DNA from: Pristiophorus japonicus
Taxonomy: Eukaryota
Assembly: GCF_044704955.1 (NCBI RefSeq)
Contig: NC_091999.1
Span: 10,974,001 to 11,038,000 of the forward strand
DNA length: 64,000 bases
Direction of reading: 5' to 3'
In this document: positions 1-60,429 of the stretch, piece after piece
Layout: every line of letters begins with the position of its first letter
Numbering within the stretch: position 1 is the stretch's first letter
Notes under the pieces: generated by a model
What the model was told of the DNA's origin: nothing
What the model saw: the letters and a program-made list of their open reading frames with translations, nothing else
Databases searched by the model: none
Program-made: the position numbers and the translations under genes

Positions 1-360
1 GAGATCTCCCCTGAAATGTGACCCCGTGAGATTCAGCTTCCAACCTTAGCGGCTGGCCAGGTTGCTGATTGTACCAGAACATATAATGTGCAGCACCGCT
101 GCTGGTTTTCAAGCTGCAAGTTAGTATGACATTACTTTCCTCTTCAACCTTCATTTCAGGAACTGGCTGTTGCACTGTATCTTGGTGGCTGCAGACTGAC
201 ATAAAATATTAGTAGCAGTAATCATCCTCATCATCATCACTTGACCAATAATAACATCTGGGTTACAGCATTGAAAGGAAGACTGGAGTTTTAGTAGGAG
301 ACCTTTAGTTACTGAGATGTGATTATAAATGAAGAGGAGCAGTTTGAGACCTTTCCACAT
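1..360 (-). pseudogene. TCR alpha/delta V pseudogene, family A (5' part only)
   Basis: Leader MWKGLKLLLFIYNHIS (313-360) with GT donor, but it is 48 nt (phase 0) and out of frame with the acceptor at ~196. The V exon reads DTVQQPVPEMKVEEESNVILTCSLKTSSGAAHYMFWYNQQPGQP, then loses V similarity. Paralogous to the intact V at 31948-32406. Confidence 0.85.
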
Positions 361-989
361 GATGATCCCTGAGTCTGTAACTGCACAGTCCTGGAAATCC
401 TCTGTCGGAGCAGATATATAGACAGGGCCCTACTGCACACCTGATCCAAACAAAGCCAGTGGAAGCAATCTCTCCAATAGCACAGGGCTACGAAACAGTG
501 TCAGAAGTGGAGCAGCAAATGGATTAGTTGCGTGCAGCTGCGACAGACACAAAACTGAGTGAATTCAAGGCTTTGATTATCCACTCGGAGTGCATTGGGC
601 GGAAAGGGTGATGGTTGGCTCGGGAGGTCTGTGGTCTAACCGCTTCTGCTTACTGAGCGAGTGACAGGGAATAAAGAGAGTTTGGGGGAAAGGAAGAGAT
701 TGTACAGCTTCAGAAATAATGAGCAGCTTCAGTCAGTTCTAAGTTTCAGTATTGAAACACAATATCTGAAACATGTGTTTTATATATAATCAACGAACCC
801 GAAATCCCTACAATGACCTTATTCTGAATAAATTACGCCAACAGAAGGCGCCGATGGCAAACATGGTCATTAGAGAGTCACGTGATGTAAGCAGGTGTAG
901 ATGGGAGAATAAACACACTGAAACAGATAGGCGCAAGTTGAGATCACTGCTGGTTAACTTCCAGTTCTTTTACTGCCCAATCTTCACAG

Positions 990-2555: not shown

Positions 2556-3398
2556 GTGGAGGAGAGAAAAAATATGAAATATGTTTGGTCTACAATTACC
2601 GATCAGAAAATCTCCACCTAAGCCCGATGCTGAGTAGCCAACTTGACGTTGTATACTCTCTAAAAGGGGGTTTGGATGTTTGTAGACTTACGTTCTAATC
2701 CCCACCCTCAATAATCTGCTGTCATGTCTCAGGATGCTCTCACCTCACATCCTTGTTTCCTCAGTCCTGCTTGAGACCGGTCGGTAAGGAGCTGCCTACC
2801 AGTGAATGGAAACACGCTCAACTGGGCCACAGTCAGTGTCCTAAGAAGGGAATGGTTAAAATTTTTGAGACAGGGAATGGGAATGAGCCCCTTGCCTGTT
2901 TGTTGCAAACCGGAAGCTGCGGGATTGTTATTGATGACAGGAAACATTTCAGAATTAAAGAGACTTTCTGAAGGACGGTGGAGATTGGGGGAACTCTGTG
3001 CTTGCGGCTTGTTTGGAAGAGCGTAGTCACGAACTTGTTAAATCTATTGATTGTGTATAAACAGACTCCGACTCAGCAACATAATCTGATCAAATAAAGT
3101 CTGTGTACAGGCCACGATCACTGGGTCCTGGAAACTAACAGAGGAGATGTGCAAACAGATGCACAATACTGGAGGCTGGTACCGAAAGAACATCAAAAGA
3201 TAAAGGGTAAATTAAGGCGATAGAAGTGGATTTATAAGTTGATTTTTCGTACGAATCTGAGTTTAAATCACTGAATAAAATTCTACAAGTGGACCTCGCC
3301 TCTTCTTGTTCAGAGTTGTGTTTTGCCACCCTTTTAAGAAGGTCTCTGTGACTCTCACTTTGGAGTTTAAATTTTTGCTACTGTGTATCCGTGTGAGG

Positions 3399-3412
3399 GC
3401 GCCCTCTGTTGA
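3399..3412 (-). promoter_or_regulatory. CTCF-like motif 24 bp downstream of the RSS nonamer
   Basis: TCAACAGAGGGCGC versus the CTCF core CCASYAGRKGGCRS. Confidence 0.6.
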
Positions 3413-3436
3413 GCACTGATTGGAATTCTCAGTATG

Positions 3437-3476
3437 AGTTTTTGTACGAGGTCCTCTATATCTCTGCAGCACTGTG
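3437..3476 (-). other. Recombination signal sequence, 24-bp spacer
   Basis: CACAGTG (3476-3470), 24 nt, ACAAAAACT (3445-3437). Confidence 0.9.
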
Positions 3477-3909
3477 GGCTCCATGGCACAGAAATATACG
3501 GCGGCATCGGAGACAAGCGTCTTGGCGATGTTTAAAGGAACCGTTTTATTTGTTTTGTTCATATCAGCAGAGAACCTGTCTGGTAAACCTGGAGACTTGT
3601 CTCCGCTTCCTGAGCTGTACCTCTTCAGTAAATATTTCGGAGCTTCTCCGGGATATTGTACGTACCAGAACAGATTTAAACCAGCTGTCGAGTAACTGCA
3701 GCTCAGGATTGTGTTCTGTCCTTCCTGAACCGTTAATTCAGGCGGATCCTGGAGCACCTTATCTTCGCCATTGATTCCTGTAACAAATCAGAGAATGCAT
3801 CAAAACGTCTGCGCATGAACATAACCCATGGAACTCAAACTGGCTGTTTAAACGAAGACTCACCGGGCAGCACGAACATTATTATTAGGAGGAAACATGG
3901 GGAGCGCAT
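3477..3909 (-). CDS. TRAV/DV: Intact TCR alpha/delta V gene segment, family C (leader exon 3864-3909, V exon 3477-3777)
   Basis: Spliced product MRSPCFLLIIMFVLP-G-INGEDKVLQDPPELTVQEGQNTILSCSYSTAGLNLFWYVQYPGEAPKYLLKRYSSGSGDKSPGLPDRFSADMNKTNKTVPLNIAKTLVSDAAVYFCAMEP. Both conserved Cys, WYxQ and DxAxYFC are present; GT-AG phase-1 intron; RSS follows directly. Confidence 0.95.
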
Positions 3910-4164
3910 TGTGAATTGTATAAAGGTCGACAGAATATAGCAGAATATTCTCAATATTCTCGTCGTTTATTCAGGTTCAAACGTCGTTCAGGCTCAGACT
4001 TCACTGATTGGGTGGCTGAGGGTGTTTCCCAGGGACAGGATTGGCTATTAACTCAGAACCGACAATTGTGTGAACCAATCAATTGCGGAGCAATTACTTT
4101 CTCTGCCGATTCCTTATTCTGTCTCTGTCTTTCACGGTGTCTCCACCTCTCTGTTTGTTTCGGC

Positions 4165-16039: not shown

Positions 16040-16360
16040 ACAACCCAAATCCCGACGGCTGTACGAGGTGCTGACGGTACCAGCACACATAACGTGACGG
16101 ACCACTTGCTTTCAAGGCTCGTGTTACATCACATTGCCTCTTTAACCGTAATTTCCGGAACTGGAGGTTCTACTGTGTCTTGGTGGTCTACTTCTGACAT
16201 AATAAAATAGTAATAGTTATTATCATCACTGTCACCACTTGGTCAATAATAACAGCTGGGTTGCAGCAGTCTGGGGGCGAATAGATTTTTACTGGGAAGG
16301 AAATCCTTACTGAGAAGAGATTTAATGATGAGGAGTGGCGAAGGATGGTGCCGGATGATC
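16040..16360 (-). pseudogene. TCR V pseudogene, family A, truncated after FR2
   Basis: Leader relic without ATG (..PLLIIKSLL, gtaagg donor); DTVEPPVPEITVKE..YVCWYRQHLVQP. Same post-FR2 junction (ggggtcacatttcaggggag) as the copy at 1-360. Confidence 0.8.
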
Positions 16361-17300
16361 GTCCCTGAGTCTGATGCACTGCAGTCTGGAAAATCCTCTG
16401 TCGGGACGGAAATACAGAGCCCCACTCCACTGTACTTCTGATCCAAACAATGACGAAGAGGGAGCAGTGGCATCAATCTCTCCAATAACAAAAGGCGGGT
16501 CAGAGCAAGAGCAGCAAACGGAAGGTGTGGGTGGGGCAGCCGCAGATACACAATTGAGTGAATTCAACTCTCTGTGCAACCGCAGAAAGTGCGCAGCGCC
16601 AATCAACTGAAATCGCAGCTGATGTAATGGAAAGGGTGTTGGCGTGGTGGAGAAGTCTGTGGCCAAACTGGTCCTGCTCACTGAGCAAGTGAATTGAAAT
16701 AAATAGAGTGGGAGGAAGAAGAAATGTTTGCACAGCTTCAGAAATATTCCTTATGAACCAGCTCAAATCTAGAGTTTGGAGATGCAATATCTGGCACAGG
16801 TCTTTTATATATGATCCATAAAACATAAATCCCCTCAATGACGTTATTTTAAATCGAATTGAACAAAATCCGCCAGCAGACGGTGCCAAACTCAAGTGTA
16901 GGAATTGGAAAGTCACGTGATGCAAACATCAAAGCCAACAATGACCGCAGGCAAAGGAAGTCACAAATGGGTCGCCCCCTGCAGCGTGTGGGTGGAACGG
17001 TGAGCTGGACAGGCCGCGGGTTACCTCTATCCCTCTCAAACTCTGCCTCATTCCATTCGAAGTTACTGCGAGTGATTCAATCAGACTTATTTCTCATAAT
17101 ACAGGCGGCTGTGCAGTAAGTACTGAATTATTTGAAAAACCCAAGTTAGCAGACTGATGCAAAGAATTTGTCAGGCAATCTGATCTCTCCATACAATGAA
17201 TAGCTGGGTTCATGGGAGGTTACATACACACACACAGATAGACACAAGTTGTAATCGATAATGCGTAAGCTCATGTTCTACTGTTCTCCTTTCTTCACAG

Positions 17301-18149: not shown

Positions 18150-18600
18150 GCTTTTCTGTCTGGGGTTAGTTTGATCAGAAAGTGACGAAGACCAAATTCT
18201 GTCATTTTGCGAGAGGAAATACGTGTTGCATTCGTGTCCTGATCCTTGTCCAAATCTGCAGAGAACTGATCTGGGAAATACAGAGAATTATCAACCTGCC
18301 CGAAGTGATAACTCCTCTGGAAGTATCTCAGAGCTTACCAGGGGTGCTGATGTAGCAGCAGAGGAAGGACAAACTATCGGATCTGGAGAACCTACATATG
18401 AGTATTATGGTCTGTTCATCTAACCGTTAATTCAGATGGATACTAGCATACTGCGCCTGCACCCCTGGTTGCTGTAACAAAACACAAAATGTGTGAAAGT
18501 TCATGGATTGTACATAACCCATGAAGCACATACTGAGCATGTATACATATACTCACCGGGTAGCACGACAATTATCAGCAAGGCACAAGGGTAGTACACG
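18150..18600 (-). pseudogene. TCR V pseudogene, family C
   Basis: Leader relic with gtgagt donor (18556); acceptor 18472; ..YPSELTV..TIILICRFSRSD..DQFSADLDKDQ. Paralog of 1380-1761. Confidence 0.75.
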
Positions 18601-26350: not shown

Positions 26351-27809
26351 CAACCATTGTCCTTCAGTCCTTCGCTCCCTGTTTCCCTGAAGTTTGACTG
26401 CACGTCCTTTACCACCTCAACGGATTCCTTCAGCGGCTCCTGGCGAGGGGAACATCTCCAGTTGTTTCTAATCAGACCATAGTACTGTCCGGCTTTTTTT
26501 GCTGATGTGGCGCACTTTTTCCTCTAAACACCTGGAGTTCACGCATGATGTCTCCTGTGGTATAATAGGACAGTTGGTTAAGGGAAGGAAGAATTAACGA
26601 CTATTATGAAGGGAATGGATGGAGTTGTTTGCGAATAGGTGCAGATGATGATTAAATTATTTCCCTGCCCCAATCACTTTCCCTGGCACCCCCTATCCGG
26701 GACTGCCCTCCACTCTAATCTCATCTTATTTTGCTGTCGTGTTCTCGCTGTCACCGGGCTCGGTAAGGTTCAGGGAGCGATTAAGCCCATCAAGTCTGTA
26801 ATCCCCTTATCGCTCCTCACACCCTTTAAAATACTCTTTAGAGACTCATATCCAATTTACCACAGTTTCAGCTGCTTCTGTGAAAAAATTGATTTTCTCA
26901 TCACAAAAATGTATCTTTTGCCGGATTCACTCGGTGACCTCCGGGCCATGGAGGGCTGCGGCTCCCACAATTCAAATCGGCAGACAAAAGCCGCTATCTG
27001 TGACATGGGTCCCGCTGGAGTCTGGCAGAAATGGTCACACATGTGCACCTCACCAACCTTTCCAGCGACAACTGTATATTTCTCTCTTTTATCGATTAAG
27101 ATACCGAAGTTATTTTCGTGCAAGTTGATGTGTTTCAATCGAGCCACTTTATGTAAATGAACGGAAACCATTCACATCGTGTTAGGTCACACAAATGTGG
27201 CGGACTCTACGTCACAAAATGTTGGCCGCCGGTGTGCTCGGCAGTGGATGACGACACAATTAATTTCCACGTTACAGTGCCATGATTGGCTGTTTCTCCC
27301 ATTGATTCAGCGTCATTGGTCACGGGCCGTTTGCTGCAGAGCACACGAGTCCCATTTGGTGCGGTCTGTGACCCCTGTCTCAGAGCTGTGACTGTGAGAT
27401 ATCAGCTCTTGAAAGGGTCTAGCACAGCCCAAGTTTGTTCTGTTAGTTTTGATACTTGATGGGACTTTGAATAAAACTAAGAATGGGAATAAAAGTAATT
27501 TTAACTCTTTAAGTATTCTTTCATTCAGTAGGTTGTTGAACAGCAAATAATCATAGTGGCTAATAATCGACATTGTGAAGTAGGATCAGTTATCCTCAAG
27601 TCGAACATGTTAATTTATAATGTAATTTTGAAAATGGAGATTATATTGATTTTATTTATTTCTTTATCCCAACATAATAAACCAATAGGAATATAGCAGC
27701 AAGTAATTCATCCGCTCAAGCCTTTCCATCATTCTAGAAATCGACTGCCAATCTCTGGCAGCAAACAGAAATAAATGCCATTGCCTCTTACAGCAAACTA
27801 ATGGGTCTA

Positions 27810-30650
27810 AATGTGGATAGGTCCCTTTTACCCCGATGGACTGCATCCTACGTTCTCAAGGGGGTGGCTGCAGAGATAGTGAATCCAATGCTTGTAATCT
27901 ACCAACATTCCCTGGATTCTGGCGAGGCCCCAGTGGACTTGAAAACCGCAAATGTGATGCACCTATTTAAGTAAGGAGAGAGACAGAAAGCAAGATACTA
28001 CATCCAAGTTAGCCTAATATATGTCATTGGGAAAATGCTACAGTCCATCATTGAGGACCTAGCAGCAGGTCCGTTAGAAAATCAGAATGCAGCCAAGCAG
28101 AGGCAACATGGTTTCATGAAAGGAAAGTCATGTTTAACAAATTTGCTCCAGTTCTTTGAGGAAGTAACGAGGAGGGTGGATATCGTGGAAGCAGTAGATG
28201 TTGTGTATTTCTATCTCCATAATGCATTCAATAAGATGCCACGTAAAGATTATTGCACAAGATAAGAGCTCACGGGTTTAGGGGTAATATATTAGCGTTC
28301 ATAGTGGATTGGATGAAGAACAGAAAGCAGAGATTCTAAGATAAATGGGTCATTTTCAGGTTGGCAAACAGTAACAAGTGGGGTGCTAAAGAGATCAGTG
28401 CTGGGGCCTTATCTATTTACAATTTGTATTAATTACTCGGATGAAGGGACCGAGTGTCATATAAACAAATTTACTAATGATATAAAATTAAGTTTGGAAG
28501 CAAGATGTGTGTTGGAAGCAAATAATCTACAAAGCAATATAGATAGGCTAATTACGTAGGCAACAATTTGACTAATTGAGTATATTTTCCAAAAATGTGA
28601 AGTTATCGAACTTGGGAGGAAAAATAAAAAGCTAATTATTATTTTAAATTTGGAGAGATTACAAAATGCAATGCTACAGAGGTATCTGTGGTCCTGGTAC
28701 AGGAAACTCAAAAACGTTAGCCTGCAGGTACAGCATGGAATTAGGAAGGGAAGTGAAATGTTAGCCTTTATTGTAAGGGGGAAGAATATTAAAGCAGAGA
28801 AGTCCTGCTACAAATATACCCAGTATTGGTGAGACCACACCTGCTACATTGCGTACAGTTTGGTCACCTTATTTAAGGAAAGATACAATTGCATTGGAGG
28901 CTGTTCAGAGATGTTTCACGAGATTGATTCCTGAGAAGAAGAGGTTGTCTTATTAAGAAAGGTTGAGCAGATAGGGCATGTACTTATTGGAGTTCTGAAG
29001 ACAAAGATGGTCTATTGAAACATACACGATTATGAGGGGGCTTATCACGGTGCATGAAGAGTGGCTATTTCCGCTAGTGCCGGTACCTAGAACTCTGGGG
29101 CATAGTTTCAGAATACGGGGTCGCCCATTTAAACATAGAAACTTAGAAACATAGACAATAGGCGCAGGATTAAGCCATTCGGTCCTTCGAGCCTGCACCA
29201 CCATTCAATATGATAATGGCAGATCATGCAACTTTACAACCCCATTCATGGTTTTTCTCCATACCATTGATCCCTTTAGCCTCAAGGACCATATTTAACT
29301 CCCTTTTGAATATATCCAACGTACTGGCCTCAAAAACTTTCTGTGGTAGAGAATACCACAGGTTCACAATTCTCTGAGTGAAGAAGTTTCTCCTTATCTC
29401 GGTACTAATTGGCTTACCCCGTATCCTTCGACTGTGACCCCTGATTCTGGACTGCTCCCACATCGCAACATTCTTCTTGCATCTACCATGTCCAACCCCG
29501 TCAGAATTTTAAATGTTTCTGTAAGATCCCCTCCCATTCTTCTCAATTCCAGTGAATATAAGCCTCGTCGATGCAGTCTTTCTTCATATGTCAGTCCTGC
29601 CATCCGGGCATCAGTCTCGTGAAGCTTCGCTGCACTCACTCAATAGCAAGAATGTCCTTCCTCAGATTAGGAGACCAAAGCTGTACACAATATTCAAAGT
29701 GTGGCCTCACCAAGGCCCTGTGAAACTGCAGTAAGATCCCCCCTGCTCCTATACTCAAATCCTCTCGCTATGAAGACCAACATGCCATTTGCTTTCTTCA
29801 CCGCCTGCTGTACCTGCATGCCAAATTTCAATGACTGATATACCATGACACCCAGGTCTCATTGCACCTCCCTTTTTCCTTATCTGTTACCATTCGGATA
29901 ATATTCTGCCTTCCTGTTTTTGCCACCCAAGTGGATAACGTCACATATACCTTCATTATACTGCATCTGCCATGCATTTGCCCACTCACCTAACTTGTCA
30001 AAGTCACCTTGCAGCCTCTTAGCATCCTCCTCACAGCTCACACTACCACCCAGCTTAGTGTCATCTGCAAACTTGGAGATATTACGTTAAATTCCCTCCA
30101 TTAAATTATTAATGCATATTGTGAATAGCTGGGTTCCCAGCACCGAAACGTGCTGTACCCCCACTAGTCACTGCCTGCCATTCTGAAAAGGATCCGTTTA
30201 TTCCTACCCTTTGCTTCCTGGCTGCCACGTCAATCAACGTCAATACATTAGCTCCAATACCATGTGCTTTAATTTAGCACACGAATCTCTTGCATGGGAC
30301 CTTGTAAAAGCCTTTTGAAAATCCAAATACACAACATCCACCGATTCTACCTTGTCCATTCTACGAGTTAAGTAGAAAATGAGGAGTAATTTCTTCTCTC
30401 AGAGGGTCCTGAATCTTTGGGTTTCTCTTACTCAGAGAGCTGTGAAGTCTCGTTCATTGGATGTATTTAAGTTGGAGATATACAGATTTTTGAACAATAA
30501 GGGAGTCAAGGTTTATGGGGATCTCGCGGAGAAATGGGGTTGAGGCCGGAATCAGATCAGCCATCATCTTTTTGAATGGCGAAGCAGGCTCATGAAGCCA
30601 AATGGACTACTCCTGCTCCTATTTCTTATTTTCTTATGTTCGTATGTTTT
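27810..30650 (+). mobile_element. Old CR1 (host 27810-29132 and 30368-30650) split by a younger CR1
   Basis: HGFMKGKSCLTNLL and other RT motifs. The host rejoins as cgcccatttaa|gtagaaaatgagg, with TTAA on both sides of the insert. Confidence 0.85.
29133..30367 (-). mobile_element. 5'-truncated CR1 nested in CR1
   Basis: (acatagaa)n tail at the left end; RT region to the right. Confidence 0.88.
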
Positions 30651-31620: not shown

Positions 31621-31869
31621 TATCAAATAATTATGGATAAAGACTGGAGACAAGGGGTGAGATGGGATAGGCATGCATGGAGGGCATTGAAAGAAAATGT
31701 GCCACAGATGCCTTTGCGCAGTATATTTCTATTTGAATGTGCTTTAATATAATTCCACCAGTGAACGCCACCGCTTCTTTTTAAGAATTGTATTTTATTT
31801 GACTTTTAAGAAGGTCTCCGTGAATCTCACTGTGGAGGCTTACTTATCGCTTTGTTTATCATCGTGTGA

Positions 31870-31883
31870 GCGCCATCTGGTAA
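31870..31883 (-). promoter_or_regulatory. CTCF-like motif 24 bp downstream of the RSS nonamer
   Basis: TTACCAGATGGCGC. Confidence 0.55.
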
Positions 31884-31907
31884 GCACCGACTGGAATTAC
31901 CAGTGTG

Positions 31908-31947
31908 GGTTTTTGTACGGGTTCCGCTATATCTCTGCACCAGTGTG
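31908..31947 (-). other. Recombination signal sequence, 24-bp spacer
   Basis: CACACTG (31947-31941), 24 nt, ACAAAAACC (31916-31908). Confidence 0.9.
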
Positions 31948-32406
31948 GGGCTCATGGCACAGAAATACACGGCGGTGTCTGAGATCAAGGCCTTGCTGAT
32001 CATTAGCTCGGTAATCATAGTCGTTTTATGAAATGCAGAAGAGAATCGGTCAGTGAAGTCGGGGTTTCGGTTTACTGCTGTTCCAATAAGGTAATATACA
32101 TAACGTGGGGGCTGCCCGGGGTGCTGACTGTACCAGAATACAGAAGGGCTACGAATGCTGGTTTTCAAGCTGCAGTTTAGTGTGACATTCCCTTCCTCTT
32201 CAACCATCATTTCGAGAACCGACTGTTCCACTGTATCTTGCTGGCTCCATTCTAAAATAAAATAATAGAAATAGTAATCATCACATGATCATCTTCATTA
32301 TCACTTTGCCAATAATAACATCAGGGGCAGAATTATTATTATTGCGAAGGAAATACTTACTGAGAAATGATATAATAATGAGGAGCGATGCGAGACGGTT
32401 CCACAT
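31948..32406 (-). CDS. TRAV/DV: Intact TCR alpha/delta V gene segment, family A (leader exon 32361-32406, V exon 31948-32251)
   Basis: Spliced MWNRLASLLIIISFL-K-WSQQDTVEQSVLEMMVEEEGNVTLNCSLKTSIRSPSVFWYSQHPGQPPRYVYYLIGTAVNRNPDFTDRFSSAFHKTTMITELMISKALISDTAVYFCAMSP; canonical residues, GT-AG intron and RSS. Confidence 0.95.
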
Positions 32407-33290: not shown

Positions 33291-34073
33291 AATCTGGGCC
33301 AAACTCGGTGCAACTTTCGAAAAAACTTAATAATCACATGGAATGAACAACACAGAAACAGTTCATAGAATCAGAGAACAATTGGGAAATAGAGAAGAGA
33401 AAGATTTAAAGAAAGTGAAAAATGAAAAAAGCTGGAAAAATAGATAGAGGAAAAGAAAGTGAAAGCACGATAGAAAGAATGAGAAAGACAAAGAGACAAA
33501 GCTATGCATTAATGAAAGTGTAGAGGACAGCAAATTAGAAAAGCCGAAAGAAGGTGATAAGTAACGAGAGAAGGACAGTGCTAATAGTTAAGAGAAAGCC
33601 ATAAACATATTGAGAAATAAAGTAAAATGTCCTTTCCTTTACATTCACGCACATTCCTCTTCCGCATATTTAGACAGTTGAATTGTCTGAAACAATATAC
33701 ATTTTCTCTAAACAATTGGCCGCTGGAAACCACCCCATTGATTAACTCATAATTTGCTCTGCCCATTATCCTGACTGTGTGAAGTCCTCAGAGTCACCGT
33801 TAGAGGGCGCCGTGGTTAAATGATTCTCACTATGATTAATCAGTAATTGCATCGACAAATCTTGCAGTAACATTGCCCACGGCAGCCCCGCCCATAGCTT
33901 CCATTTGCCGCTCTCGCTCTGACCCGCCTTGCCAGCCCTGTGTTATTGGAGTGATTGCTGCCGCTGCTCCCTGTTGGCATTGGTAGGATCAGCAGTGCAG
34001 TGACGCTGGGATCTGTACTTCTGCTCCCACAGAGCATTTCCAGGACTGCAGAGTTACAGACTTTGGGAGCATC

Positions 34074-34499
34074 ATGCGGAACCGTCTTGCACCACTGCTC
34101 ATTGTTATATTACTTCAAAGTAAGTATTTCCTTCCAATTAAAAATAATTTCTCCCCCTGGCTGCTGTAACTAAGGAGTTATTATTGGTAAAATTATATTG
34201 ATGATTACGATTATGTTCTTTGAGACGATGATGATGATGATCATGATGATTAATTTTATTATTTTCTGTTCGAAGGGAGCCAACAAGATACAGTGGAACA
34301 GTCTGTCCCTGAAATAATGGTTGAGGCGGAAAGTAATGTCACACTAACCTGCACCTTGAAAACCAGCAATACTAACCCTTATGTGTTCTGGTACATACAG
34401 CACCTCGGGAAGCCTCCACAGTACATGCTTCGTTTTATCAGAGTGAATGTGGACCTGAACCCTGCCTTCACTGATCGATTCTCTTCTACATTTGTTTAG
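34074..34499 (+). pseudogene. TCR V pseudogene, family A, truncated in FR3
   Basis: Intact leader MRNRLAPLLIVILLQ (34074-34119, gtaagt); DTVEQSVPEIMVEAESNVTLTCTLKTSNTNPYVFWYIQHLGKPPQYMLRFIRVNVDLNPAFTDRFSSTFV*; no second Cys and no RSS. Confidence 0.9.
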
Positions 34500-37048: not shown

Positions 37049-37523
37049 ATGTATTTCCTAAATTCTTTATTGATAATAATGGTCATGCTGTCCGGTGAGT
37101 CTATGTTTAAAAGGTCTGTGTGTCTTTCATGTTTTAAATTCACTCTCAGACTTTTGACGCATTCTGTATTTTGTAACAGGAATGAATGGCGAAAATTCAG
37201 TGTCACAGGATCCGGCAGAATTAAAGGCTAAGGAAGGAGAGACAATAATACTGCATTGTAGTTAATCCACATCGACAGCTTTCCCTACCTCTTCTGGTAT
37301 ATCCAGTATTCGGGAAAGCTTCGAGATATTTACTGAAGAGATATTACAAGGAGCAGGGGGGTCACTCTCTAGATCTACCAGACCGGATCTCTGCTTATTT
37401 CGACCAAGACAAGAAATCGATACCGTTAAATATCTCCGGGGCTCATGGCTCTGACTCTGACATCTATTATTGTGCGCTGCGCCCCACATTCTTACAGGGA
37501 TGCAATCAGCCCGTACTAAAAAG
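37049..37523 (+). pseudogene. TCR V pseudogene, family C, with 23-spacer RSS
   Basis: Leader MYFLNSLLIIMVMLS (37049-37094); exon from 37180 ENSVSQDPAELKAKEGETIILHCS*..LFWYIQY..YLLKRY..LPDRISAYFDQDKKSIPLNISGAHGSDSDIYYCALRP; one stop and two frameshifts; RSS CACATTC, 23 bp, ACTAAAAAG. Confidence 0.92.
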
Positions 37524-37867
37524 AGTAACATACTCTCATCTCCGGTCACTGACTCAGACCTGTGACCTGGATTGTGAAGTGATAATGGAACATAAACCAA
37601 AGTATAAAAACTAATTTGGCCTAATTACCAATTTCTCTGCTGTAGACTCTGTGAAATTATGTGCAATATCACTATGTATCAGCTGTTCTAATAGTCAGTG
37701 AGCAGCTCTTTTAAAGGGAGCCTCTGGCACTGACACCAGAACAACGTTAACTATAGCCATTCACTGCCTCCAACACTTATACTGTCGCTGTTCAAGGGCC
37801 AACATTGGGTTTAATCCACAGGCGGAAATCGTTTCAGTCCTTTCCCTGCTGCCCGCTCTGACGTTGT

Positions 37868-39987: not shown

Positions 39988-42900
39988 CTCGGGGGAGTGT
40001 TTGCTAGTGCTGTTGGGGAGGAGTTAAACTAATATGTCGGGAGATGGGTACCAATGCAGGGAGACAGAGGGAAACAAAATGGAGACGGAAGCAAAAGACA
40101 GAAAGGAGATGAGTAAAAGTGGAGGGCAGAGAAACCCAAGGCAAAAAATAAAAAGGGCCACTGTACAGCAAATGTCTAAAGTATCACCGTGTCATAAAAC
40201 GGCAAGCCTCAAAGCTCGCTGCCTCAATGCGAGGAGTATTCGAAACCCAGGAGAGGGCTCTGAGCTAGTTAGAGTGGGTGAGAGCGTAGATGAACAGGAT
40301 CCAAGAAAGAATGCAAAAGGCAGGAGGCTACAGAGCACTGGGGTAAGTGTAAACCACAAGGTGATAGGAAGGGACAATATGTATGAATATAAAGGGGCTG
40401 CAGGAGTGGTCTAAACGAAAAATCCTGGTTTAAAAACGAGCATTGAAACACTCTAGCAAAACGCACGCAGCATTCGAAATAAATAAATGAGTAGACGGCA
40501 CAAATCATTACAAATGGGTATGATTTGGTGGCCATTACAGAAACGTGGTTGCAGGGTGGCCAAGACTGGGAATTAAACATACAGGGGTATCTTACAATTC
40601 GGAAGGATAGACAAGAAGGGAAAGGAGGTGGGGTAGCTTTGTTAATACACGATGATATCAGGGCAGTTGTGAGAGATGATATTGGCTCTAATGAACAAAA
40701 TGTTGAATCATTGTGGGTGGAGATTAGAGATATTAAGGGTAAAAAGTAACTGGTGGTCGTAGTTGATAGGCCCCAAATAATAATTTCACGGTGGGGTGGA
40801 AAATAATCAAGGGAATAATGGAGGCATGTGAAAAAGAAACGGCAGTATTCATGGGGGATTTTAACCGACCTATCGATTGGTCAAATCAAATCGCACGGGG
40901 TAGCCTGGAGGAAGAATTCTTAGAATGCACACGGGATTGTTTCTTAGAACAGTATGTTACAGAACCTACAAGGTAACAAGCTATCATAGATCTGGTTCTG
41001 TGTAATGAGACGGAATAATAAACGATCTCCTAGTAAAAGATCCTCTCGGAATGAGTAATCACAGAATGGTTGAATTTGTAATACAGATTGAGGGTGAGGA
41101 AGTAGTGACTCCAGCAAGCATACTATGCTTGAACAAAGGGTCGACAGTGGGATGATGGCAGAGTTAGCTAAAGTAGACTGGGAACACAGATTAAACGGTG
41201 GCACAATTGAGGAATAGTGGAGTACTTTTAAGGAGCTCTTTCATAGTGCTCAACAAAAATATATTTCAGTGAAAAAAAAGGGCGGTAAGAAAAGGGAAAA
41301 CCAGCCGTGGATAACCAAGGAAATAAAGCAGAGTATCTAATTAAAAACCAATGCGTATAAGGTGGCCAAGGTTAGTTGGAAACTAGAAGATTGGGAACAT
41401 TTTAAACGACAGCAAAGAATGACTAACAAAGCAATACAGAAAGGAAAGATAGGTTACGAAAGTAAACTTGCGCAAAACATAAAAACAGATAGTAAAAGCT
41501 TTTACAGATATCTAAAACGGAAGAGAATGACGAAAGTAAATGTTGGTCCCATCGAAGATGAGAAGGGGGATTTAATAATGGGAAATGTGGAAATGGCTGA
41601 GACCTTAACAATTATTTTGCTTCGGTCGACACAGCGGAAGACACAAAAACCATGCCAAAAATTGCTGGTCACGGGAATGTGGGAAAGGAGGACCTTGAAA
41701 CAATCACTATCACTGGGAGGTAGTGCTGGTCAGGCTAATGGGACTCAAGGTAGACACGTCCCCTGGTCCTGATGAAATGCATCCCAGGGTATTAAAAGAG
41801 ATGGCGGATGTTATAGCAGATGCATTCGTTATAATCTACCAAAATTCTCTGGACTCTGGGGAGATACCAGCGGATTGGAAAGCAGCTAATGTAACGCCTC
41901 TGTTTAAAAAAGGGGGCAGGCAAAAGGCACGTAACTATAGGCCGGTTAGTTTAACATCTGTAGTGGGGAAAATGCTTGAAGCTATCATTAAGGATGAAAT
42001 AGCGGGACATCTAGAAAGGAATAGTGCAATCAAGAAGACGCAACATGGGTTCATGAAGGGCAAATCATGTTTAACTAATTTACAGGAATTCTTTGAGGAT
42101 ATAAGGAGCATGGTGGTTAGAGGTGTACCGATGGATGTGGTGTATTTAGATTTCCAAAAGGCATTCGATAAGGTGCCACACAAAAGGTTACTGCAGAAGA
42201 TAAAGGCACGCGGAGTCAGAGGAAATGTATTAGCATTGATCGAGAATTGGCTGGCTAACAGAAAGCAGAGAGTCTGGATAAATGGGTCCTTTTCGGGCTG
42301 GAAATCGGTGGTTAGTGGTGTGCCACAGGGATCGGTGCTGGGACCATAACTGTTTACTATATACACCGATGACCTGGAAGAGGGGACAGAGTGTAGTGTA
42401 ACAAAATGTTCAGATGACACAAAGATTAGTGGGAAAGCGGGTTGTGTAGAGGGCAGAGAGAGGCTGCAGAGATATTTAAATAGGTTAAGCGAATGGGCGA
42501 AGTTTTGGCAGATGGAATACAATGTTGGAAAATGTGAGGTCATCCACCTTGGAAAAAAAACAGTAAACGCAATATTATTTGAATGGGGAGAAATTGCAAG
42601 ATGCTGCGGTGCAGATGGACCTGGGGATCCTGGTGCATGAATCCCAAAAAGTTAGTTTGCAGGTGCAGCAGGTAATCAGGAAGGCGAATGGAATGTTGGC
42701 CTTCATTGCGAGAGGGATGAAGTACAAAAGCAGGGAGGTCCTGCTGCAACTGTACAGGGTATTGGAGAGGCCGCATCTGGAGTACTGCGTGCAGTTTGGT
42801 CACCTTACTTCACAAAGGATATAATAGCCTTGGATGTGGTACAGAGACGATTCACTTGGCTGATTCCGGAGATGAGGGGGTTACCTTATGGTGATAGATT

Positions 42901-43352
42901 GAGCAGACTGGGTCTTTACTCGTTGGAGTTCAGAAGGATGATGGATGATCTTATAGAAACATTTAAAATAATGAAAGGGATAGACAGGATAGAGGCAGAG
43001 AGGTTATTTCCACTGGTCGGGAAGAGTAGAACTAGAGGGCACAGCCTCAAAGTACGGGGGAGCCAATTTAAAACCAAGTTGAGAAGGAATTTCTTCTCCC
43101 AGGGGGTTGTGAATTTGTGGAATTCGCTGCCCAAGGAAGCAGTTGAGGCGAGCTCATTGAATGTATTCAAATCACAGATAGATAGATTTTTAACCAATAA
43201 GGGAACTAAGGGTTATGGGGAGCGGGCGGATAAGTGGAGCTGAGTCCACTGCCAGATCAGCCATGATCTTTTTGAATGGTGGAGCAGGCTCGAGGGGCTA
43301 GATGGCCTACTCCTGTTGCTAAGTCTTATGTTCTTATGTTATGTTCTTTATG
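39988..43352 (+). mobile_element. Near full-length CR1 LINE (ORF1 C-terminus, ORF2 endonuclease and RT), disrupted
   Basis: LGGVFASAVGEELN* ORF1 end; VAITETWL and MGDFN (APE endonuclease); YRPVSLTS, HGFMKGKSCLTNL, GVPQGSVLGP (RT); (TTCTTATG)n tail. Confidence 0.95.
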
Positions 43353-43725
43353 TCATATGAGAATGAACCTATTGCTCTCGATCAGTCGTCACCCACCAGC
43401 ATTAAATAAACCAACACTGCAAAGTGATTGACTCAGACCTGGTGAAAATATTCCCACAATTAAGCATTGCTAAAGCTTTGCTCACACCAAAGACTGCACT
43501 CACTGAGCCACTGGCTCCACAGGCCAATATATTATGCTGTGACTGTCAGTATCTCTGATCATACCCGCTATCAACTGGAAATTATAGAGACAAGCATTGT
43601 GGTAACACTGCCTGCCGCAACCCGGCCCTCAGCTTTCGTTTGCTGCTCTCGTTCTGACCCGCTTTACCTGCGCCATGTTATTGAAGAGATTGCTGCAGCT
43701 GTTACGGAACTGTAAACAGGATGGA

Positions 43726-44191
43726 GGTTTTTGTGCAGTGACTGCCGCTGTTCCTCTCAGTATGTGTCCCTATCGCTCAATAATACGCAGCGGTATCCCC
43801 ACACTCCGAGTTCTGAAAGACCAATTGGTCATGTTTGTCCGCAGTGGAACGATCCAGTTAAAATCGGGTCCTGCTCACTTTGCCCTGCGATGCTCGCATT
43901 ATTACCCACTCGAGTCCCTGACGAGATTTCTGTTTGTACCAGTGCACGGAGTAAATGATGGACGTGTCATAGCTGTAGGTTATCTACACCAAATCTCCGC
44001 TCCGAACTGTTACCGCAGCCGGAGACTGCAGCACTCGGTCCGAGAAACATCGACCTGTAAAAACATTCAGTTAATATAAAACTGAGCAACGCGAACAGAA
44101 AGCCCTGCGGTTATTGAGCTCAGCTCCTGTACCTACATCTGAGCAGCAGCAGAATAACGAGCAATACATTAATTTGTACCGAGCAATACAT
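43726..44191 (-). pseudogene. V pseudogene with a GLEWV motif and 23-RSS
   Basis: Leader MYCSVQINVLLVILLLLR (44137-44191); exon 43765-44054 DRVLQSPAAVTVRSGDLV*ITYSYDTSIIYSVHWYKQKSRQGLEWVIMRASQGKVSRTRF*LDRSTADKHDQLVFQNSECGDTAAYY*AIG; RSS CATACTG, 23 bp, ACAAAAACC. Confidence 0.9.
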
Positions 44192-44518
44192 CCTTGTGAT
44201 TACAATGTCAAGAGGAAAGTGGCACAAAGCTCGCATCAGAAGACCCCGAACCCCATGACAACATTGAACAGATGGTGAATAAAGTCAGCGGCGCCCAGTT
44301 AAAGTCTCAATCACGTGGGTTTTCTCCTCTTCGATTGGCTGGAAATCGACTTTGTTCCACTACGGTTCACATCCGGACATGCCAGTGATCTCATGGCCAG
44401 GAAGATTATCTCCTTGTTGAGGGAAATGAAGTGAACCCCATCCCTTTGTGATAGTGACCCTCAGAAGTGACATTCCCGGCGTTGGGAACCAAGTCAATCT
44501 CTCGATAACCCTTTCCAA

Positions 44519-47110
44519 ATAGAAACACAGAAACATAGAACCATAGAAAATAGGTGCAGGAGTAGGCCATTCAGCCGTTTTAGCCTGCACCGCCATTCAA
44601 TGAGTTCATGGCTGAACATGCAACTTCGGTATCCCCTTCCTGCTTTCTCGCCATACCCCTTGATCCCCCGAGTAATAAGGACTTCATCCAACTCCTTTTT
44701 GAATATATTTAGTGAATTGGCCTCAACTACTTTCTGTGGTAGAGAATTCCACAGGTTCACCACTCTCTGGGTGAAGAACTTTCTCCTCATCTCGATCCTA
44801 AATGGCTTACCCCTTATCCTTAGACTGTGACCCCTGGTTCTGGACTTCCCCAACATTGGGAACATTCTTCCTGCATCTAACCTGTCTAAACCCGTCAGAA
44901 TGTTAAACGTTTCTATGAGGTCCCCTCTCATTCTTCTGAACTCCAGTGAATACAAGCCCAATTGATCCAGTCTTTCTTGATAGGTCAGTCCCACCATCCC
45001 GGGAATCAGTCTGGTGCATTTTCGCTGCACTCCCTCAATAGCAAGAATGTCCTTCCTCAAGTTGGGAGACCAAAACTGTACACAATACTCCAGGTGTGGC
45101 CTCACCAAGGCCCTGTACAACTGTAGCAACACCTCCCTGCCCCTGTACTCAAATCCCCTCGCTATGAAGGCCAACATGCCATTTGCTTTCTTAACCGCCT
45201 GCTGTACCTGCATGCCAACCTTCAATGACTGATGTACCATGAAACCCAGGTCTCGTTGCACCTCCCCTTTTCCTAATCTGTCACCATTCAGATAATAGTC
45301 TGTCTCTCTGTTTTTACCCCAACGTGGATAACCTCACATTTATCCACATTATACTTCATCTGCCATGCATTTGCCCACTCACCTAACCTATCCAAGTCAC
45401 TCTGCAGCCTCATAACATCCTCCTCGCAGCTCACACTTCCACCCAACTTAGTGTCATCCGCAAATTTGGAGATACTACATTTAATCCCCTCGTCTAAATC
45501 AATAATGTACAATGTAAACAGCTGGGGCCCCAGCACAGAACCTTGCGGTACCCCACTAGTCACTGCCTGCCATTCTGAAAAGTACCCATTTAATCCTACT
45601 CTTTGCTTCCTTTCTGACAACCAGTTCTCAATCCACATCACAACACTACCCCCAATCCCATGTGCTTTAAATTTGCACATTAATCTCTTGTGTGGGACCT
45701 TGTCGAAAGCCTTCTGAAAGTCCAAATATACCACATCAACTGGTTCTCCTTTGTCCACTTTACTGGAAACATCCTCAAAAAATTCCAGAAGATTTGTCAA
45801 GCATGATTTCTCTTTCACAAATTCATGCTGACTTAGACCTACCATGTCAATATTTTCCAAATGCGCTGCTATGACATCCTTAATAATTGATTCCATCATT
45901 TAACCCACTACTGAGGTCAGGCTGCCCGGTCTATAATTCCCTGTTTTCTCTCTCCCTCCTTTTTTAAAAAGTGTTGTTACATTGGCTACCCTCCACCCGA
46001 TAGGAACTGATCCAGAATCAATGGAATGCTGGAAAATGACTGTCAATGCATCCGCTAGTTCCAAGGCCACCTCCTTAAGTACTCTGGGATGCAGTCCATC
46101 AGGCTCTGGGGATTTATCGGCCTTCAATCCCATCAATTTCCCCAACACAATTTCCCGACGAATAAAGATTTCCCTCAGTTCCTCCTCCTTACTAGATCCT
46201 CTGACCTCTTTTATATCCGGAAGGTTGTTTGTGTCCTCCTTAGTGAATACCGAACCAAAGTACTTGTTCAATTGGTATGCCATTTCTTTGTTCCACGTTA
46301 AGACTTCCCCTCATTCTGACTGCAGGGGAACTACGTTTGTCTTTACTAAACTTTTTCTCTTTACATACCTATAGAAACTTTTCAATCCGCCTTAATGTTC
46401 CCTGCAAGCTTCTTCTCGTACTCCATTTTCCCTGCCCTAATCAAACCCTTTGTCCTCCTCTGCTGAGTTCTAAATTTCTCCCAGTCCCCGGTTCGCTGCT
46501 ATTTCTGGCCAATTTGTATGCCACTTCCTTGGCTTTAATACGATCCCTGATTTCCCTCGATAGCCACGGTTGAGCCACGTTCCCTTTTTTATTTTTACGC
46601 CAGACAGGAACGAAAAGTTGTTGTAGTTCATCATGCAGTCTCTAAATGTCTGCCATTGCCCATCCACAGTCAACCCCTTAAGTATCATTCGGCAATCTAT
46701 CCTAGCCAATTCATGCCTCATACATTCAAAGTTACCCTTCTTTAAGTTCTGGACCATGGTCTCTGAATTAACTGTTTCATTCTCCATCCTAATGCAGAAT
46801 TCCACCATATTATGGTCACTCTTCGCTAAGGGGCCTCGCACATTGAGATTTCTAATTAATCCTCTCTCATTACACAACACCCTGTCTAAGATGGCCTCCC
46901 CCTAGTTGGTTCCTCGACATATTGGTCTCGAAAACCATCCCTTATGCATTCCAGGAAATCCTCCTCCACCGTATTGCTTCCAGCTTGGCTAGCCCAATCT
47001 ATGTGCATATTCAAGTCACCCATTATAACTGCTGCACCTTTATTGCATGCACCCCTAATTTCCTGTTTGATGCCCTCCCCAACATCACTACTACTGTTTG
47101 AATCTGTACC
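44519..47110 (-). mobile_element. CR1 LINE ORF2, 5'-truncated
   Basis: ORFs 44494-45261, 45288-45899, 45900-46283 and 46470-46880 carry RT motifs (KFADDTKL, GVPQGSVLGP). Confidence 0.95.
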
Positions 47111-52967: not shown

Positions 52968-55900
52968 AGAGATTCCAGGTAACAACCCAGCAGTGCTTTT
53001 CAGGGAACCTATACATGGAGACAGAGTGAAGTAGAATGGGGGCAGAAGCAAAAGATAAAAAGAAAGAAAAAGTGGTGGGCAGCGAAACCCAAGGCAAATA
53101 TCAAAAAGGGCCACATTACAGCAAAATTTTAAAGGTGCAAAGTTTGTTAAAAAGACAAGCCTGAAGGCTCTGTGCCTCAATGCGAGGATTATTCGTGATA
53201 AGGTGGATGTATTAACTGCGCAGGGCAACCAAGGCTCCATGGTGACCAAGGCTGCGAACTCAACATCCAGGGGTGTTGAACAATAGACAGAAAGGAAAAG
53301 GATGTGGGGTAGCGTTGCCCGTTAAAGAGGAAATTAACACAATAGTAAGGAGGGGCATTAGCTTGAATGATTTTGAATCTGTATGGGTAGTGCTGCGGAA
53401 TACCAAAGGGCAGAAAACACTAATGGGAGTTGTGTACAGACTACCAAACAGTAGTAGTAAGGTTGCGGACAGCATCAAACAAGAAATTAGGGATGCATGC
53501 AATAAGGGTACAGCAATTATCACAGGCGACTGTAATCTACATATACATTGGGCAAACCGAACTGGTAGCAATACGGTGGAGGAGGATTTCCTGGGGTGTA
53601 TTAGGGATGGTTTTCTCGAGCAATATGACGAGGAACCAATTAGAGGGCTGGCCATCCTAGACTGGGTCATGTGTAATAAGAAAGAACTAATAAACAATCT
53701 TGTTGTGCGAGGCCCCTTGGCAAAGAGTGATCATAATATGGTAGAATTCTTTGTTAAGATGGGAGTGACACAGTTAATTCAGAGACTAGGGTTCTGAATT
53801 AGTGAAAGCTAACTTCGATGCTATGGGACGTGAATTTGCTGGAATAGATTGATGATCGATACTTAAAGGTTTGACGGTGGATAGGCAATGGCAAACATTT
53901 AAAGATCACATGGATGAACTTCAACAGTTGTACATCCCGGACTTGAGTAAACATAAAACGGGGAAGGTGGCTCAACTGTGGCTAGAAAGGGAAATTATGG
54001 ATAGTGTTAAATCCAAGGAAGAGGCATAGAAATTGGGCAGAAAAAGCAGCAAACCTGAGGATTTGGAGAAATTTAGAATTCAGCAGAGGAGGACAAAGGG
54101 TCTAAATAGGTGGGGAATATAGACTTTGAGAGGAAGCTTACTGGGAATATAAAATTGAATGCAAAAGCTTGTATAGATACGTGAAGAGAATAAGATTAGT
54201 GAAGACAAACATAGGTCCCTTGTCGTCAGAAACGGGTGAATTTATAATGGGGAACAAAGGAATGGCAGACCAATTGAACAAATACTTTGGTTCCGTCTTC
54301 ACGAAGGAAGACACAAATAACCTTCCATAAATACTAGGGGACTGAGGGTCTAGTGAGAAGTAGGAACTGAAGGAAATCCTTATTAGTCAGGAAATTGTAT
54401 TAGGGTAATTGATGGAATTGAAGACCGCTATATCCCCTGGGCCTGATAGTCTGCATCCCAGAGTACTTAAGGAAGTGGTCGTAGAAATGGTGGATGCATT
54501 GGTAATAATTTTCCAGCAGTCCATCGATCTCTGGATCAGTTCTGATGGACTGGAGGCGAGCCAATGTAAGACCACTTTTTAAGAAGGGAGGGAGAGAGAA
54601 ATGGGAGAATTATAAATCGTTTAGTCTGACATCAGTAGTGGGGAAAATGTTGGAATCAATTATTAAAGATGGAATAGCAGCGCATTTGGAAAGCAGTGAC
54701 AGGATCGGTCCAAGTCAGTATGGATTTATGAAAGGGAAATCATGCTTGACAAAACTTCTACAATTCTTTGAGGATGTAACTAGCAGAGTGGACAGGGGAG
54801 AACAAGTGGATGTGCTGTATTTGGAATTTCAAAAGGCTTTTGACAAGATCGCACACGACAGATTGTTGTTCAAAATTGAAGCACATGGTATTGGGGGTAA
54901 TGTATTGATGTGGATACAGAACTTGTTGGAGACAGAAAGGAGAGAGTGAGGATAAACGGGTCATTTTCAGAATGGCAGGCAGTGAGTAGTCGGATGCCAC
55001 AGGACTCAGTGCTGGGACCCCAGCTATTTACAATATACATCAATGATTTAGATGAAGGAATTGAGTGTTATATCTCCAAGTTTGCAGATGACACGAAGCT
55101 GGGTGGCGGTGTGAGCTATAAAGAGGATGCTAAGAGGCTGCAGGTTGACTTGGACAGGTTAGGTGTGAGGGCAAATGCATGGTAGATGAAGTATAATGTG
55201 GAAAAATGTGAGGTTATCCACTTTGGTGACAAAAACACGAAGTTATAATATTTTCTGAATGGCCGCAGATTAGGAAAAGGGTTGGTGCATCGAGACCTGG
55301 GTATCATGGTACATCAGTCATTGAAAGTTGGCATGCAGGTACAGCAGGCGGTGAAGAAGGCAAATGGCGTGTTAGCCGTCTTAGCTACGCGATTTGAGTG
55401 TAGGAGCAGGGAGGTCTTACGGCATTTCTACAGGGCCTTGGTGAGGCCTCACCTGGAATATTGTGTTCAGTTTTGGTCTCCTAATCAGAAGAAGGACGTT
55501 CTTGCTATTGAGGCAGCGCAGCGAAGGTTCATCGTACTGATTCCCGGGATGGCAGGACTGACATATGAGGAGAGACTGGATCGACTGGGCCTGCATTCAC
55601 TGAAGTTTAGAAGGATGAGAGGGGATCTCATAGAAACAATTAAAATTCTGACGGGACTGGACAGGTTAGAAGCAGGAAGAATGTTCGCGATGGTGGGGAA
55701 TTCCAGAACCAGGGGACACACTCGCAGAATAAGGGGTAAGCTGTTTAAGACTGAGATGTGGATAAACTGCTTCACTCAGAGAGTTGCAAACGTGCGGAAT
55801 TCTCTAGCGCAGAGAGTTGAAGAATGCCGGTTCATTGGATATATTCAAGAGGGCGTTAGATATGGCCCTTATGACGAAAGACATCAAGTGGTATGGAGAG

Positions 55901-56008
55901 AAAGCAGGAAAGGGTTACTGAGGTTATGATCAGCCTTGATCATATTGACTGATGGTGCAGGCTTCAAGGGTCCTGCACCTATTTTCTATGTTTATATGTT
56001 TCTATATT
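52968..56008 (+). mobile_element. CR1 LINE ORF2 (endonuclease and RT), degenerate
   Basis: LKALCLNAR, GVVYRLPNS, GFMKGKSCLT, KFADDTKLGG, LEYCVQFWSP; TTCTATGT tail. Confidence 0.94.
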
Positions 56009-56029
56009 TAACAATCGCTATGTAAATCA

Positions 56030-59720: not shown

Positions 59721-60195
59721 ATGTGCTCTCCCTGTTCCTGACTGATAATAATGACCGTGCTGCCGGCGAGTCTACCTTTAAATGGCCAGTGCGTGTTCCA
59801 TGGGTTATATTCAATGTGGGACGTTTAGCACATTCTGCATTTTGTTACAGGAACGAGTGCTAAAATTCAGTGTCCCAGGATCCACCTCATCCAATGGTAC
59901 AGGAAAGGCAGACCATAATAATGAACTGTAGTTACTCGATAACATACAAAGCCCCAACTCTCTTCTGGTGTAACCAGTATCCCAGGGAAGCTCCGAGATA
60001 TCGACTGAGGAGATATAGCTCGGGGACGGTACATCACTCTCCAGATTTAACAGACAGGTACTTTGCTGTTTTGCTCAGTGACAACAAAATGATTCTGTTA
60101 AATATCGCTGGAGCTCTTAATCCGATACCGCTGTGCATTTCTGTGCCATGGATCCCACACTGCTGAGGAGATTTAGTGTATCCCGGACCAATATT
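59721..60195 (+). pseudogene. TCR V pseudogene, family C, with 24-spacer RSS relic
   Basis: Leader with a TGA stop and GC donor; NSVSQDPPHPMVQERQTIIMNCSYSITYKAPTLFWCNQYPREAPRYRLRRYSSG..LNIAGA/SDTAVHFCAMDP; RSS CACACTG (60156-60162), 24 bp, ACCAATATT (60187-60195). Confidence 0.92.
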
Positions 60196-60219
60196 TATAC
60201 TGTCAGTTCCAGTTGGAGT

Positions 60220-60233
60220 TCACCAGAGGGCCC
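60220..60233 (+). promoter_or_regulatory. CTCF-like motif 24 bp downstream of the RSS nonamer
   Basis: TCACCAGAGGGCCC. Confidence 0.5.
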
Positions 60234-60429
60234 TCTCACACCGATAAACAATAATTCAACCTCCTGACTGACAGCAAAAAACACAACACTCAACAGGCAC
60301 AGGTTAGGTCCACTGGTGGAATTTTATTAGTTTGTGATTTAACCTCGCATTTATAATAAAATTAACTTTCGCAATCTTGGCTGTGGAGACTTTACTCCCC
60401 TTTTATCGTTAAAAACATCGAAGAGTTGT

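What the first reader, a model, noticed from the sequence alone, without database searches (positions are those of the whole stretch)
31690..31990. Two different V families share one 3' module: possible chimeric V or gene-conversion tract
Seen: V 31948-32406 (family A promoter, MWNRL leader, DTVEQSV FR1) and V 3477-3909 (family C promoter, MRSPC leader, DKVLQDP FR1) have unrelated upstream regions and dissimilar FR1. From the YFCAM codons through the RSS spacer (gcagagatatag..cgtacaaaaac), the CTCF-like site and more than 200 bp of flank (gagaccttcttaaaag), they are clearly homologous. The family-C member at 37049 lacks this module. Inference: a portable FR3-RSS-CBE cassette was moved between families by recombination or gene conversion.
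Basis: partly seen in the sequence, partly recalled or inferred. Interest (0 to 1): 0.7.

Follow-up and report, generated by a model that had tools for sequence, protein, structure and literature searches.

The report
Ancient hybrid shark T-receptor gene family
In this shark-type T-cell-receptor gene array, about half of one variable-gene family carries another family's tail (last codons, cutting signal and a predicted CTCF site), likely from one very old germline crossover later copied many times rather than from a mobile cassette; an ordinary process, but it leaves the same family with and without that site for testing.

Summary
In detail: window 3274-3517 and 31746-31989 align at 77% over 247 columns, while the V exons share about 46%. 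It is not special to this pair. In 1.75 Mb of the surrounding V array, 29 of 55 family-C genes analysed carry the family-A 3' end and 26 keep their own. All 29 switch from C-like to A-like near the end of FR3, mostly 36-38 nt before the heptamer. They share with A an unusual 24-bp RSS spacer and a CTCF-like motif 24 nt past the nonamer, form one clade in the longest 5' tree (support 92), and never return to the C flank. No other family among 191 RSS-bearing Vs shares a flank. Best reading: one ancient unequal crossover (A donor, C recipient), then duplication. Direction and single origin are inferred. Read-through proteins suggest a skate has the hybrid too. A portable cassette or recent pairwise conversion is not supported. 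CTCF binding and expression are untested. This scan noted the same module before, on other DNA of this genome and in another genome.

The parts
31948..32406 (-). Family-A TCR alpha/delta-type V gene (leader MWNRL, open V exon ending CAMS); member of the likely donor family
31746..31989 (-). Shared 3' module of the A gene: FR3 end, RSS, CTCF-like motif, flank
   Evidence: 77.3%, 247 columns vs 3274-3517
31908..31947 (-). RSS of the A gene, heptamer 31941-31947, 24-bp spacer, nonamer 31908-31916
31869..31883 (-). CTCF-like core (2 mismatches to consensus), 24 nt past the nonamer; binding untested
3477..3909 (-). Hybrid V gene (subgroup Ca1): family-C leader and FR1-FR3, family-A end; open V exon
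3493..3530 (-). Crossover interval for this gene (best point about 3512, 36 nt before the heptamer)
   Evidence: interval -54 to -17
3437..3476 (-). RSS of the hybrid gene, canonical heptamer, 24-bp spacer
3398..3412 (-). CTCF-like core of the hybrid gene (2 mismatches)
3274..3397 (-). Flank shared with family A
2564..3266 (-). Distal flank homologous (71%) to the upstream region of V family f7, as in A-to-f7 cassettes
59721..60370 (+). Hybrid pseudogene (subgroup Ca3): stop in leader, frameshift, decayed nonamer, CTCF-like core 60220-60234
37049..37734 (+). Family-C pseudogene with the family's own flank (Cc type), no CTCF-like motif

Best explanation
Twenty-nine family-C V genes in this array end in family-A sequence from the last codons of FR3 onward, most likely because one ancient germline unequal crossover joined a C gene's promoter, leader and most of its exon to an A gene's FR3 end, signal, predicted CTCF site and downstream DNA, and the hybrid was then duplicated into three subfamilies. 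Shown: the mosaic, the breakpoint zone, the shared 24-bp spacer and motif, and family-wide distribution. Inferred: that the exchange was one event, that A was the donor, that it used the short conserved stretch around the L-[IV]-S-D codons, and that it is older than the shark-ray split. Predicted: the hybrid V rearranges under the A-type signal and, by analogy with mouse proximal VH genes, gains access from the adjacent CTCF site.
For: Mosaic: V exon Ca~Cc 70-71%, Ca~A 46-49%; +40..+100 flank Ca~A 71-77%, Ca~Cc 27-33%, A~A 79%. Breakpoint model gains 33-66 lnL in 29 of 29 Ca; best point -36 to -38 in 12 of 12 Ca2/Ca3; interval includes -36 in 12 of 17 Ca1. 24-bp spacer in 39 of 52 A, 23 of 29 Ca, 0 of 26 Cc. 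Ca is one clade in the 693-column 5' tree, SH-aLRT 92. In the 3' tree Ca lies among A lineages and one clade is not rejected, p-AU 0.094. f7-upstream sequence lies behind 25 of 29 Ca, 0 of 26 Cc, and behind the six A-remnant loci examined. Both parents of an A-to-C crossover still exist; the Cc flank matches no other family. Read-through proteins: skate C-type V with A-type end, bamboo shark A-type V with the same end and C-type Vs with CAL ends.
Against: Single origin is not shown: a shorter 5' tree needs 2 changes, 3' trees 3-4 changes; five Ca1 intervals exclude -36; Ca2 (4 genes) lacks the f7-upstream flank. The C family could not be rooted: with A as outgroup Ca is not one clade, and the protein tree with other species is unresolved (p-AU 0.19 and 0.30), so direction rests on parsimony. 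Skate and bamboo-shark read-throughs imply 23-bp spacers, which needs reversions or a later spread of the 24-bp form. The CTCF-like motif is not better kept in intact genes (Fisher p 0.38).
Confidence: 0.7

Rival explanations
1. Two or three separate crossovers or conversions from A into different C sublineages at the same FR3 homology patch.
For: Best 3' trees split Ca into 3-4 groups among A lineages; Ca1 breakpoints drift to -20..-27 in 10 of 17 genes; Ca2 has a different distal flank.
Against: Ca is one clade in the longest 5' tree; Ca1 and Ca3 share distal flank to about +1450; one 3' clade not rejected.
Confidence: 0.13
2. Reverse direction: the module is ancestral in C; stem A took it from C, and Cc later got a new tail.
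For: C is unrooted; C-type Vs with CAMEP ends occur in a skate and two unnamed records.
Against: Needs two events and two parents that are not found: 0 of 55 A genes carry the Cc flank, and the Cc flank is private among 191 Vs.
Confidence: 0.1
3. A portable FR3-RSS-CTCF cassette, or a recent conversion tract between these two genes.
For: Homology between subfamilies fades at about +200 to +250, like a bounded unit.
Against: Partner ranks 20 and 29 of 81; no C flank resumes; no third family has it; all 30 genome hits inspected lie behind A or C V sequence.
Confidence: 0.04
4. No exchange: A and C kept an ancestral 3' end under selection and Cc lost it.
For: RSS and CTCF-like motif are conserved parts; A and Cc spacers are distantly alike, 63%.
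Against: Non-coding Ca~A identity equals A~A identity although the exons are only 46-49% alike.
Confidence: 0.02
5. RAG-made germline join through the cryptic heptamer at the end of FR3 (V-replacement-like; mechanism recalled, from no call).
For: The junction is near the YxC codons.
Against: The switch lies upstream of the YxC codons, and hybrids have one YxC and no added bases.
Confidence: 0.01

Closest known systems
Birth-and-death evolution of antigen-receptor V arrays with unequal crossover (recalled; no paper read for this)
   Same: Tandem and inverted V cassettes, many pseudogenes, a hybrid gene with one junction in a conserved patch.
   Different: The parents are families only about 46% alike, and the hybrid founded 29 genes in three subfamilies.
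RSS-associated CTCF sites of mouse and human IGH V genes (PMC6746451, passages seen; PMC7930373, passages seen)
   Same: Consensus-like core at a fixed distance behind the nonamer, same orientation as the V gene, restricted to some families.
   Different: TCR locus of a cartilaginous fish; 24 nt rather than 17-19 (mouse) or 19/48 (human); intervening DNA also conserved; no link to gene intactness here; in mouse the site follows the coding-sequence tree, here it crosses families; binding untested.
Elasmobranch TCR alpha/delta V array in the antigen-receptor complex (PMC12227049, passages; PMC5931798, passages)
   Same: TCR-alpha-like V exons, 23-type signals, closest named relatives in horn shark, bamboo shark and skate.
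   Different: The passages seen discuss Ig-TCR chimeras (NARTCR, TAILV), not hybrids between two TCR V families.

Membership tests
TCR alpha/delta V segment of cartilaginous fish | Leader exon, intron, V-set exon with C, W and YxC | tested here: met
   PDB hits include TCR alpha V domains, but scFv entries rank first
TCR alpha/delta V segment of cartilaginous fish | 3' RSS of the 23 class | tested here: met
   heptamer and nonamer present, spacer 24 rather than 23
TCR alpha/delta V segment of cartilaginous fish | Closest relatives in cartilaginous fish | tested here: met
   named best relatives are horn shark, bamboo shark, skate, elephant shark
TCR alpha/delta V segment of cartilaginous fish | Linkage to, or rearrangement with, J and C alpha/delta | not tested
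   no J or C region searched; no RNA run listed
Crossover hybrid gene | One switch point, incongruent 5' and 3' trees | tested here: met
Crossover hybrid gene | Upstream context of one parent and downstream context of the other | tested here: inconclusive
   downstream A-to-f7 context in 25 of 29; upstream f18 neighbour shared by 2 Ca2 genes and the Cc gene at 11.429 Mb only
Gene-conversion tract | Second switch back to recipient sequence | tested here: not met
   0% Ca-Cc collinear flank over 1.5 kb at printed precision
Mobile cassette | Occurs in unrelated contexts or several families | tested here: not met
   only 40 of 82 genome candidates were scored
RSS-associated CTCF element | Consensus core at a fixed distance behind the nonamer | tested here: met
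   <=2 mismatches in 37 of 41 A, 22 of 24 Ca, 0 of 16 Cc, mostly at +64
RSS-associated CTCF element | Kept in functional genes, lost in pseudogenes | tested here: not met
   18 of 37 intact vs 17 of 44 other genes at <=1 mismatch, p 0.38
RSS-associated CTCF element | CTCF binding and effect on recombination | not testable with these tools
   needs ChIP/EMSA and repertoire data

The most novel reading that the evidence does not exclude
A V-gene lineage captured a whole recombination-control module (24-bp-spacer signal plus CTCF anchor) from another family before sharks and rays split, and was kept and amplified because the anchor raises its use; CTCF stalling would offset the non-canonical spacer. 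Loop-extrusion control of V choice would then be as old as jawed vertebrates and transferable between V families by one crossover.
Probability: 0.2. Interest if true: 0.65.

Novelty: new member of a known kind. Interest (0 to 1): 0.36.

Why it matters
The mechanism is ordinary array evolution. Its use is as a natural experiment: one V family exists in the same locus with and without an RSS-adjacent CTCF-like site (17 of 29 hybrids vs 7 of 26 own-tail genes keep an open exon and a good signal; related copies, so not independent). Thymus repertoire data could test whether such sites steer V choice outside mammals and how well a 24-bp spacer works. It also warns that V-family trees built on whole exons mix two histories.

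Tried and rejected
No RNA holder was listed for 3300-3950, so expression and rearrangement are open. Word-index protein searches with the hybrid V found nothing at my strict cut-offs. The cross-species protein tree did not resolve Ca vs Cc. Rooting C with A gave an unsupported root. A search for a return to C-type flank found none (the script stopped before its last two queries finished). The first V census used off-frame seeds and served only as a map; counts come. Family-A labels in the neighbour table were collapsed by a script error, so A neighbours were not counted. Paper searches (listings only unless named) found no description of this hybrid family, of a 24-bp shark TCR spacer, or of RSS-CTCF sites in shark TCR; subscription papers are not covered, PMC6026039 was not held, and no supplements were opened, though those of PMC12227049 and PMC5931798 may hold relevant V tables.

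Full report
Setting. The window is G000:C23:10,974,001-11,038,000 of a 5.9-Gb genome. It lies in an array of V segments in both orientations. I fetched C23 9.954-11.708 Mb plus 11 outlying stretches; V segments continue to the low edge, so the array is not complete. The V exons match V-set domains including TCR alpha and their closest named relatives come from cartilaginous fish. A TCR alpha/delta identity is inferred; J and C regions were not located.

Observation. Confirmed as described. The shared stretch is 31746-31989 vs 3274-3517, 77.3% over 247 columns.

It is family-wide. A genome search with the module gave 41 matches (40 of 82 candidates scored): 38 in this array, 2 on contig C645, 1 at C23 5.55 Mb. 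All 30 inspected had A or C V sequence upstream. Classifying V genes with at least 200 aligned nt gave 52 A with the A flank, 3 A without, 29 C with the A flank (Ca), 25 C with their own flank and 14 C with neither; 48 partial hits were set aside. I dropped 16 rows (7 degenerate C, 6 near-identical dispersed copies, 3 A), leaving 52 A, 29 Ca and 26 Cc. One of the 52 A has most of the module deleted. Ca falls into three subfamilies of 17, 4 and 8. The two window genes are not a special pair: each ranks 20th and 29th of 81 for the other's module (72%), with own-family matches at 90-93%.

One switch point. Upstream of -40 from the heptamer Ca is 70-71% like Cc and 46-49% like A; in the last 33 nt of FR3 it is 75-80% like A and 59-63% like Cc; at +40..+100 it is 71-77% like A and 27-33% like Cc, with A~A at 79%. 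A breakpoint model gains 33-66 lnL units in 29 of 29 Ca genes, against at most 4.7 in 52 A and 3.8 in 26 Cc (these controls helped build the profiles). The best point is -36 to -38 in all 12 Ca2/Ca3 genes; in Ca1 it is -36 in 7 of 17 and the interval includes -36 in 12 of 17. The junction sits in the L-[IV]-S-D codons, where A and C are locally alike, and upstream of the YxC codons, which argues against a RAG join at the cryptic heptamer.

What travelled. The spacer is 24 bp in 39 of 52 A (9 unreadable) and 23 of 29 Ca (3 unreadable), and in 0 of 26 Cc; among the other families only 2 single genes were called 24. A review passage reports that a one-base change of the 23 spacer reduces cutting, moderately in one cited study and drastically in another (PMC7753069, passages). 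A CTCF-like core lies 24 nt past the nonamer in 37 of 41 A, 22 of 24 Ca and 0 of 16 Cc at two mismatches or fewer; the locus has 118 sites at one mismatch or fewer against 5-10 in five shuffles, 35 of them at A/Ca ends. Mouse proximal VH genes have such sites 17-19 bp past the nonamer (PMC6746451, passages). Here the motif is not better kept in intact genes (p 0.38).

Crossover, not tract or cassette. Ca flanks show no collinear match to Cc flanks over 1.5 kb. Behind all 17 Ca1 and 8 Ca3 genes, but no Ca2 and 0 of 26 Cc, lies the upstream region of V family f7 in the same orientation, as behind six A-remnant loci and 3 of the 52 A (one of the 3 is among the six, one is a short repeat-like match). 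A horn-shark gene model joins an A-type V to an f7-like V. Among 191 RSS-bearing Vs in 21 exon clusters, this is the only flank cluster shared between families, and the Cc flank gave 27 genome matches, those inside the fetched DNA all at C-type or fragment positions; four outlying ones were not fetched.

How many events, which way. Ca is one clade in the longest 5' alignment (SH-aLRT 92, one row left out) but needs two changes in a shorter one. In 3' trees Ca lies among A lineages in 3-4 groups with weak support; one clade is not rejected (p-AU 0.094, three long rows left out, four A remnants added). A-to-C needs one event and two parents that both survive; C-to-A needs two events and two unseen parents. 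The C family could not be rooted, so direction is parsimony only.

Age. Gene models from other species read through the signal into the flank. A skate C-type V ends CAMEP and continues in residues matching the A module up to the CTCF-like site; two unnamed C-type records also end CAMEP; bamboo shark has an A-type V with the module and two C-type Vs ending CAL; one unnamed record has the Cc flank. This suggests the hybrid predates the shark-ray split, but it rests on a few translated non-coding stretches and orthology is unresolved. Skate and bamboo-shark read-throughs imply 23-bp spacers; one unnamed A record implies 24. Two of four Ca2 genes here also have 23.

Known and new. Hybrid V genes from unequal crossover are a known kind of event (recalled). 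My nine paper searches found no account of this family (listings only). Earlier notes of this scan reached the same reading 60 kb away (e1-9961522) and in another genome (e1-9560901); I saw them after forming my reading. Added here: locus-wide counts, the breakpoint, the A-to-f7 distal flank, the uniqueness among families and the cross-species hints.

Verdict. Real, old, explained by ordinary germline recombination; moderately useful as a test bed for CTCF-guided V choice. Interest 0.36.

Noticed in passing
G000:C23 23.83, 25.85, 29.65, 47.97, 50.46, 64.05 Mb and C3770 (L200-L206): Seven nearly identical copies of a pair of broken V segments (an f18-like piece and a C-type V) are scattered over 40 Mb of the same chromosome, probably inside larger duplicated blocks.
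   Followed up: no
L131, G000:C23 about 11,044,848 and five more copies (family f8, with f11 nearby): V family with a 22-bp spacer and IgNAR-like look, beside a family with an extra CDR1 cysteine: likely NAR-TCR V and its supporting V (labels recalled).
   Followed up: no
G000:C23 10,184,990 and 11,489,618: Two A pseudogenes have lost the FR3 end, signal and CTCF-like site in one deletion of roughly 220 bp, fusing exon to distal flank.
   Followed up: partly
window 50-523, 16057-16545, 33870-34495: A-family 5' halves cut off in mid-exon; the one at 34.0-34.5 kb ends in FR3 at unrelated sequence. Many similar half genes occur in the array.
   Followed up: no
window 18246-18575 and 1546-1940, with intact-looking signals at 18840 and 1272: Decayed C-type V pieces without a V-type 3' end, packed within 0.5 kb of V segments of other families in a repeated cassette.
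   Followed up: partly
family f14 (for example G000:C23 9,962,221): A third family has its own CTCF-like motif at +81 from the heptamer in 3 of 3 genes, in a flank unrelated to the A module.
   Followed up: no
G000:C23 11,320,087 and C645 1,051,312: A Ca3 pseudogene and an A pseudogene share 91% identity from +220 to +1500, probably the same young repeat inserted behind both.
   Followed up: no
window 6695-8481, 27798-30370, 41556-47109, 53068-56011, 61005-63998: Long dispersed repeats of 65-90% identity, LINE-like by size; not identified.
   Followed up: no
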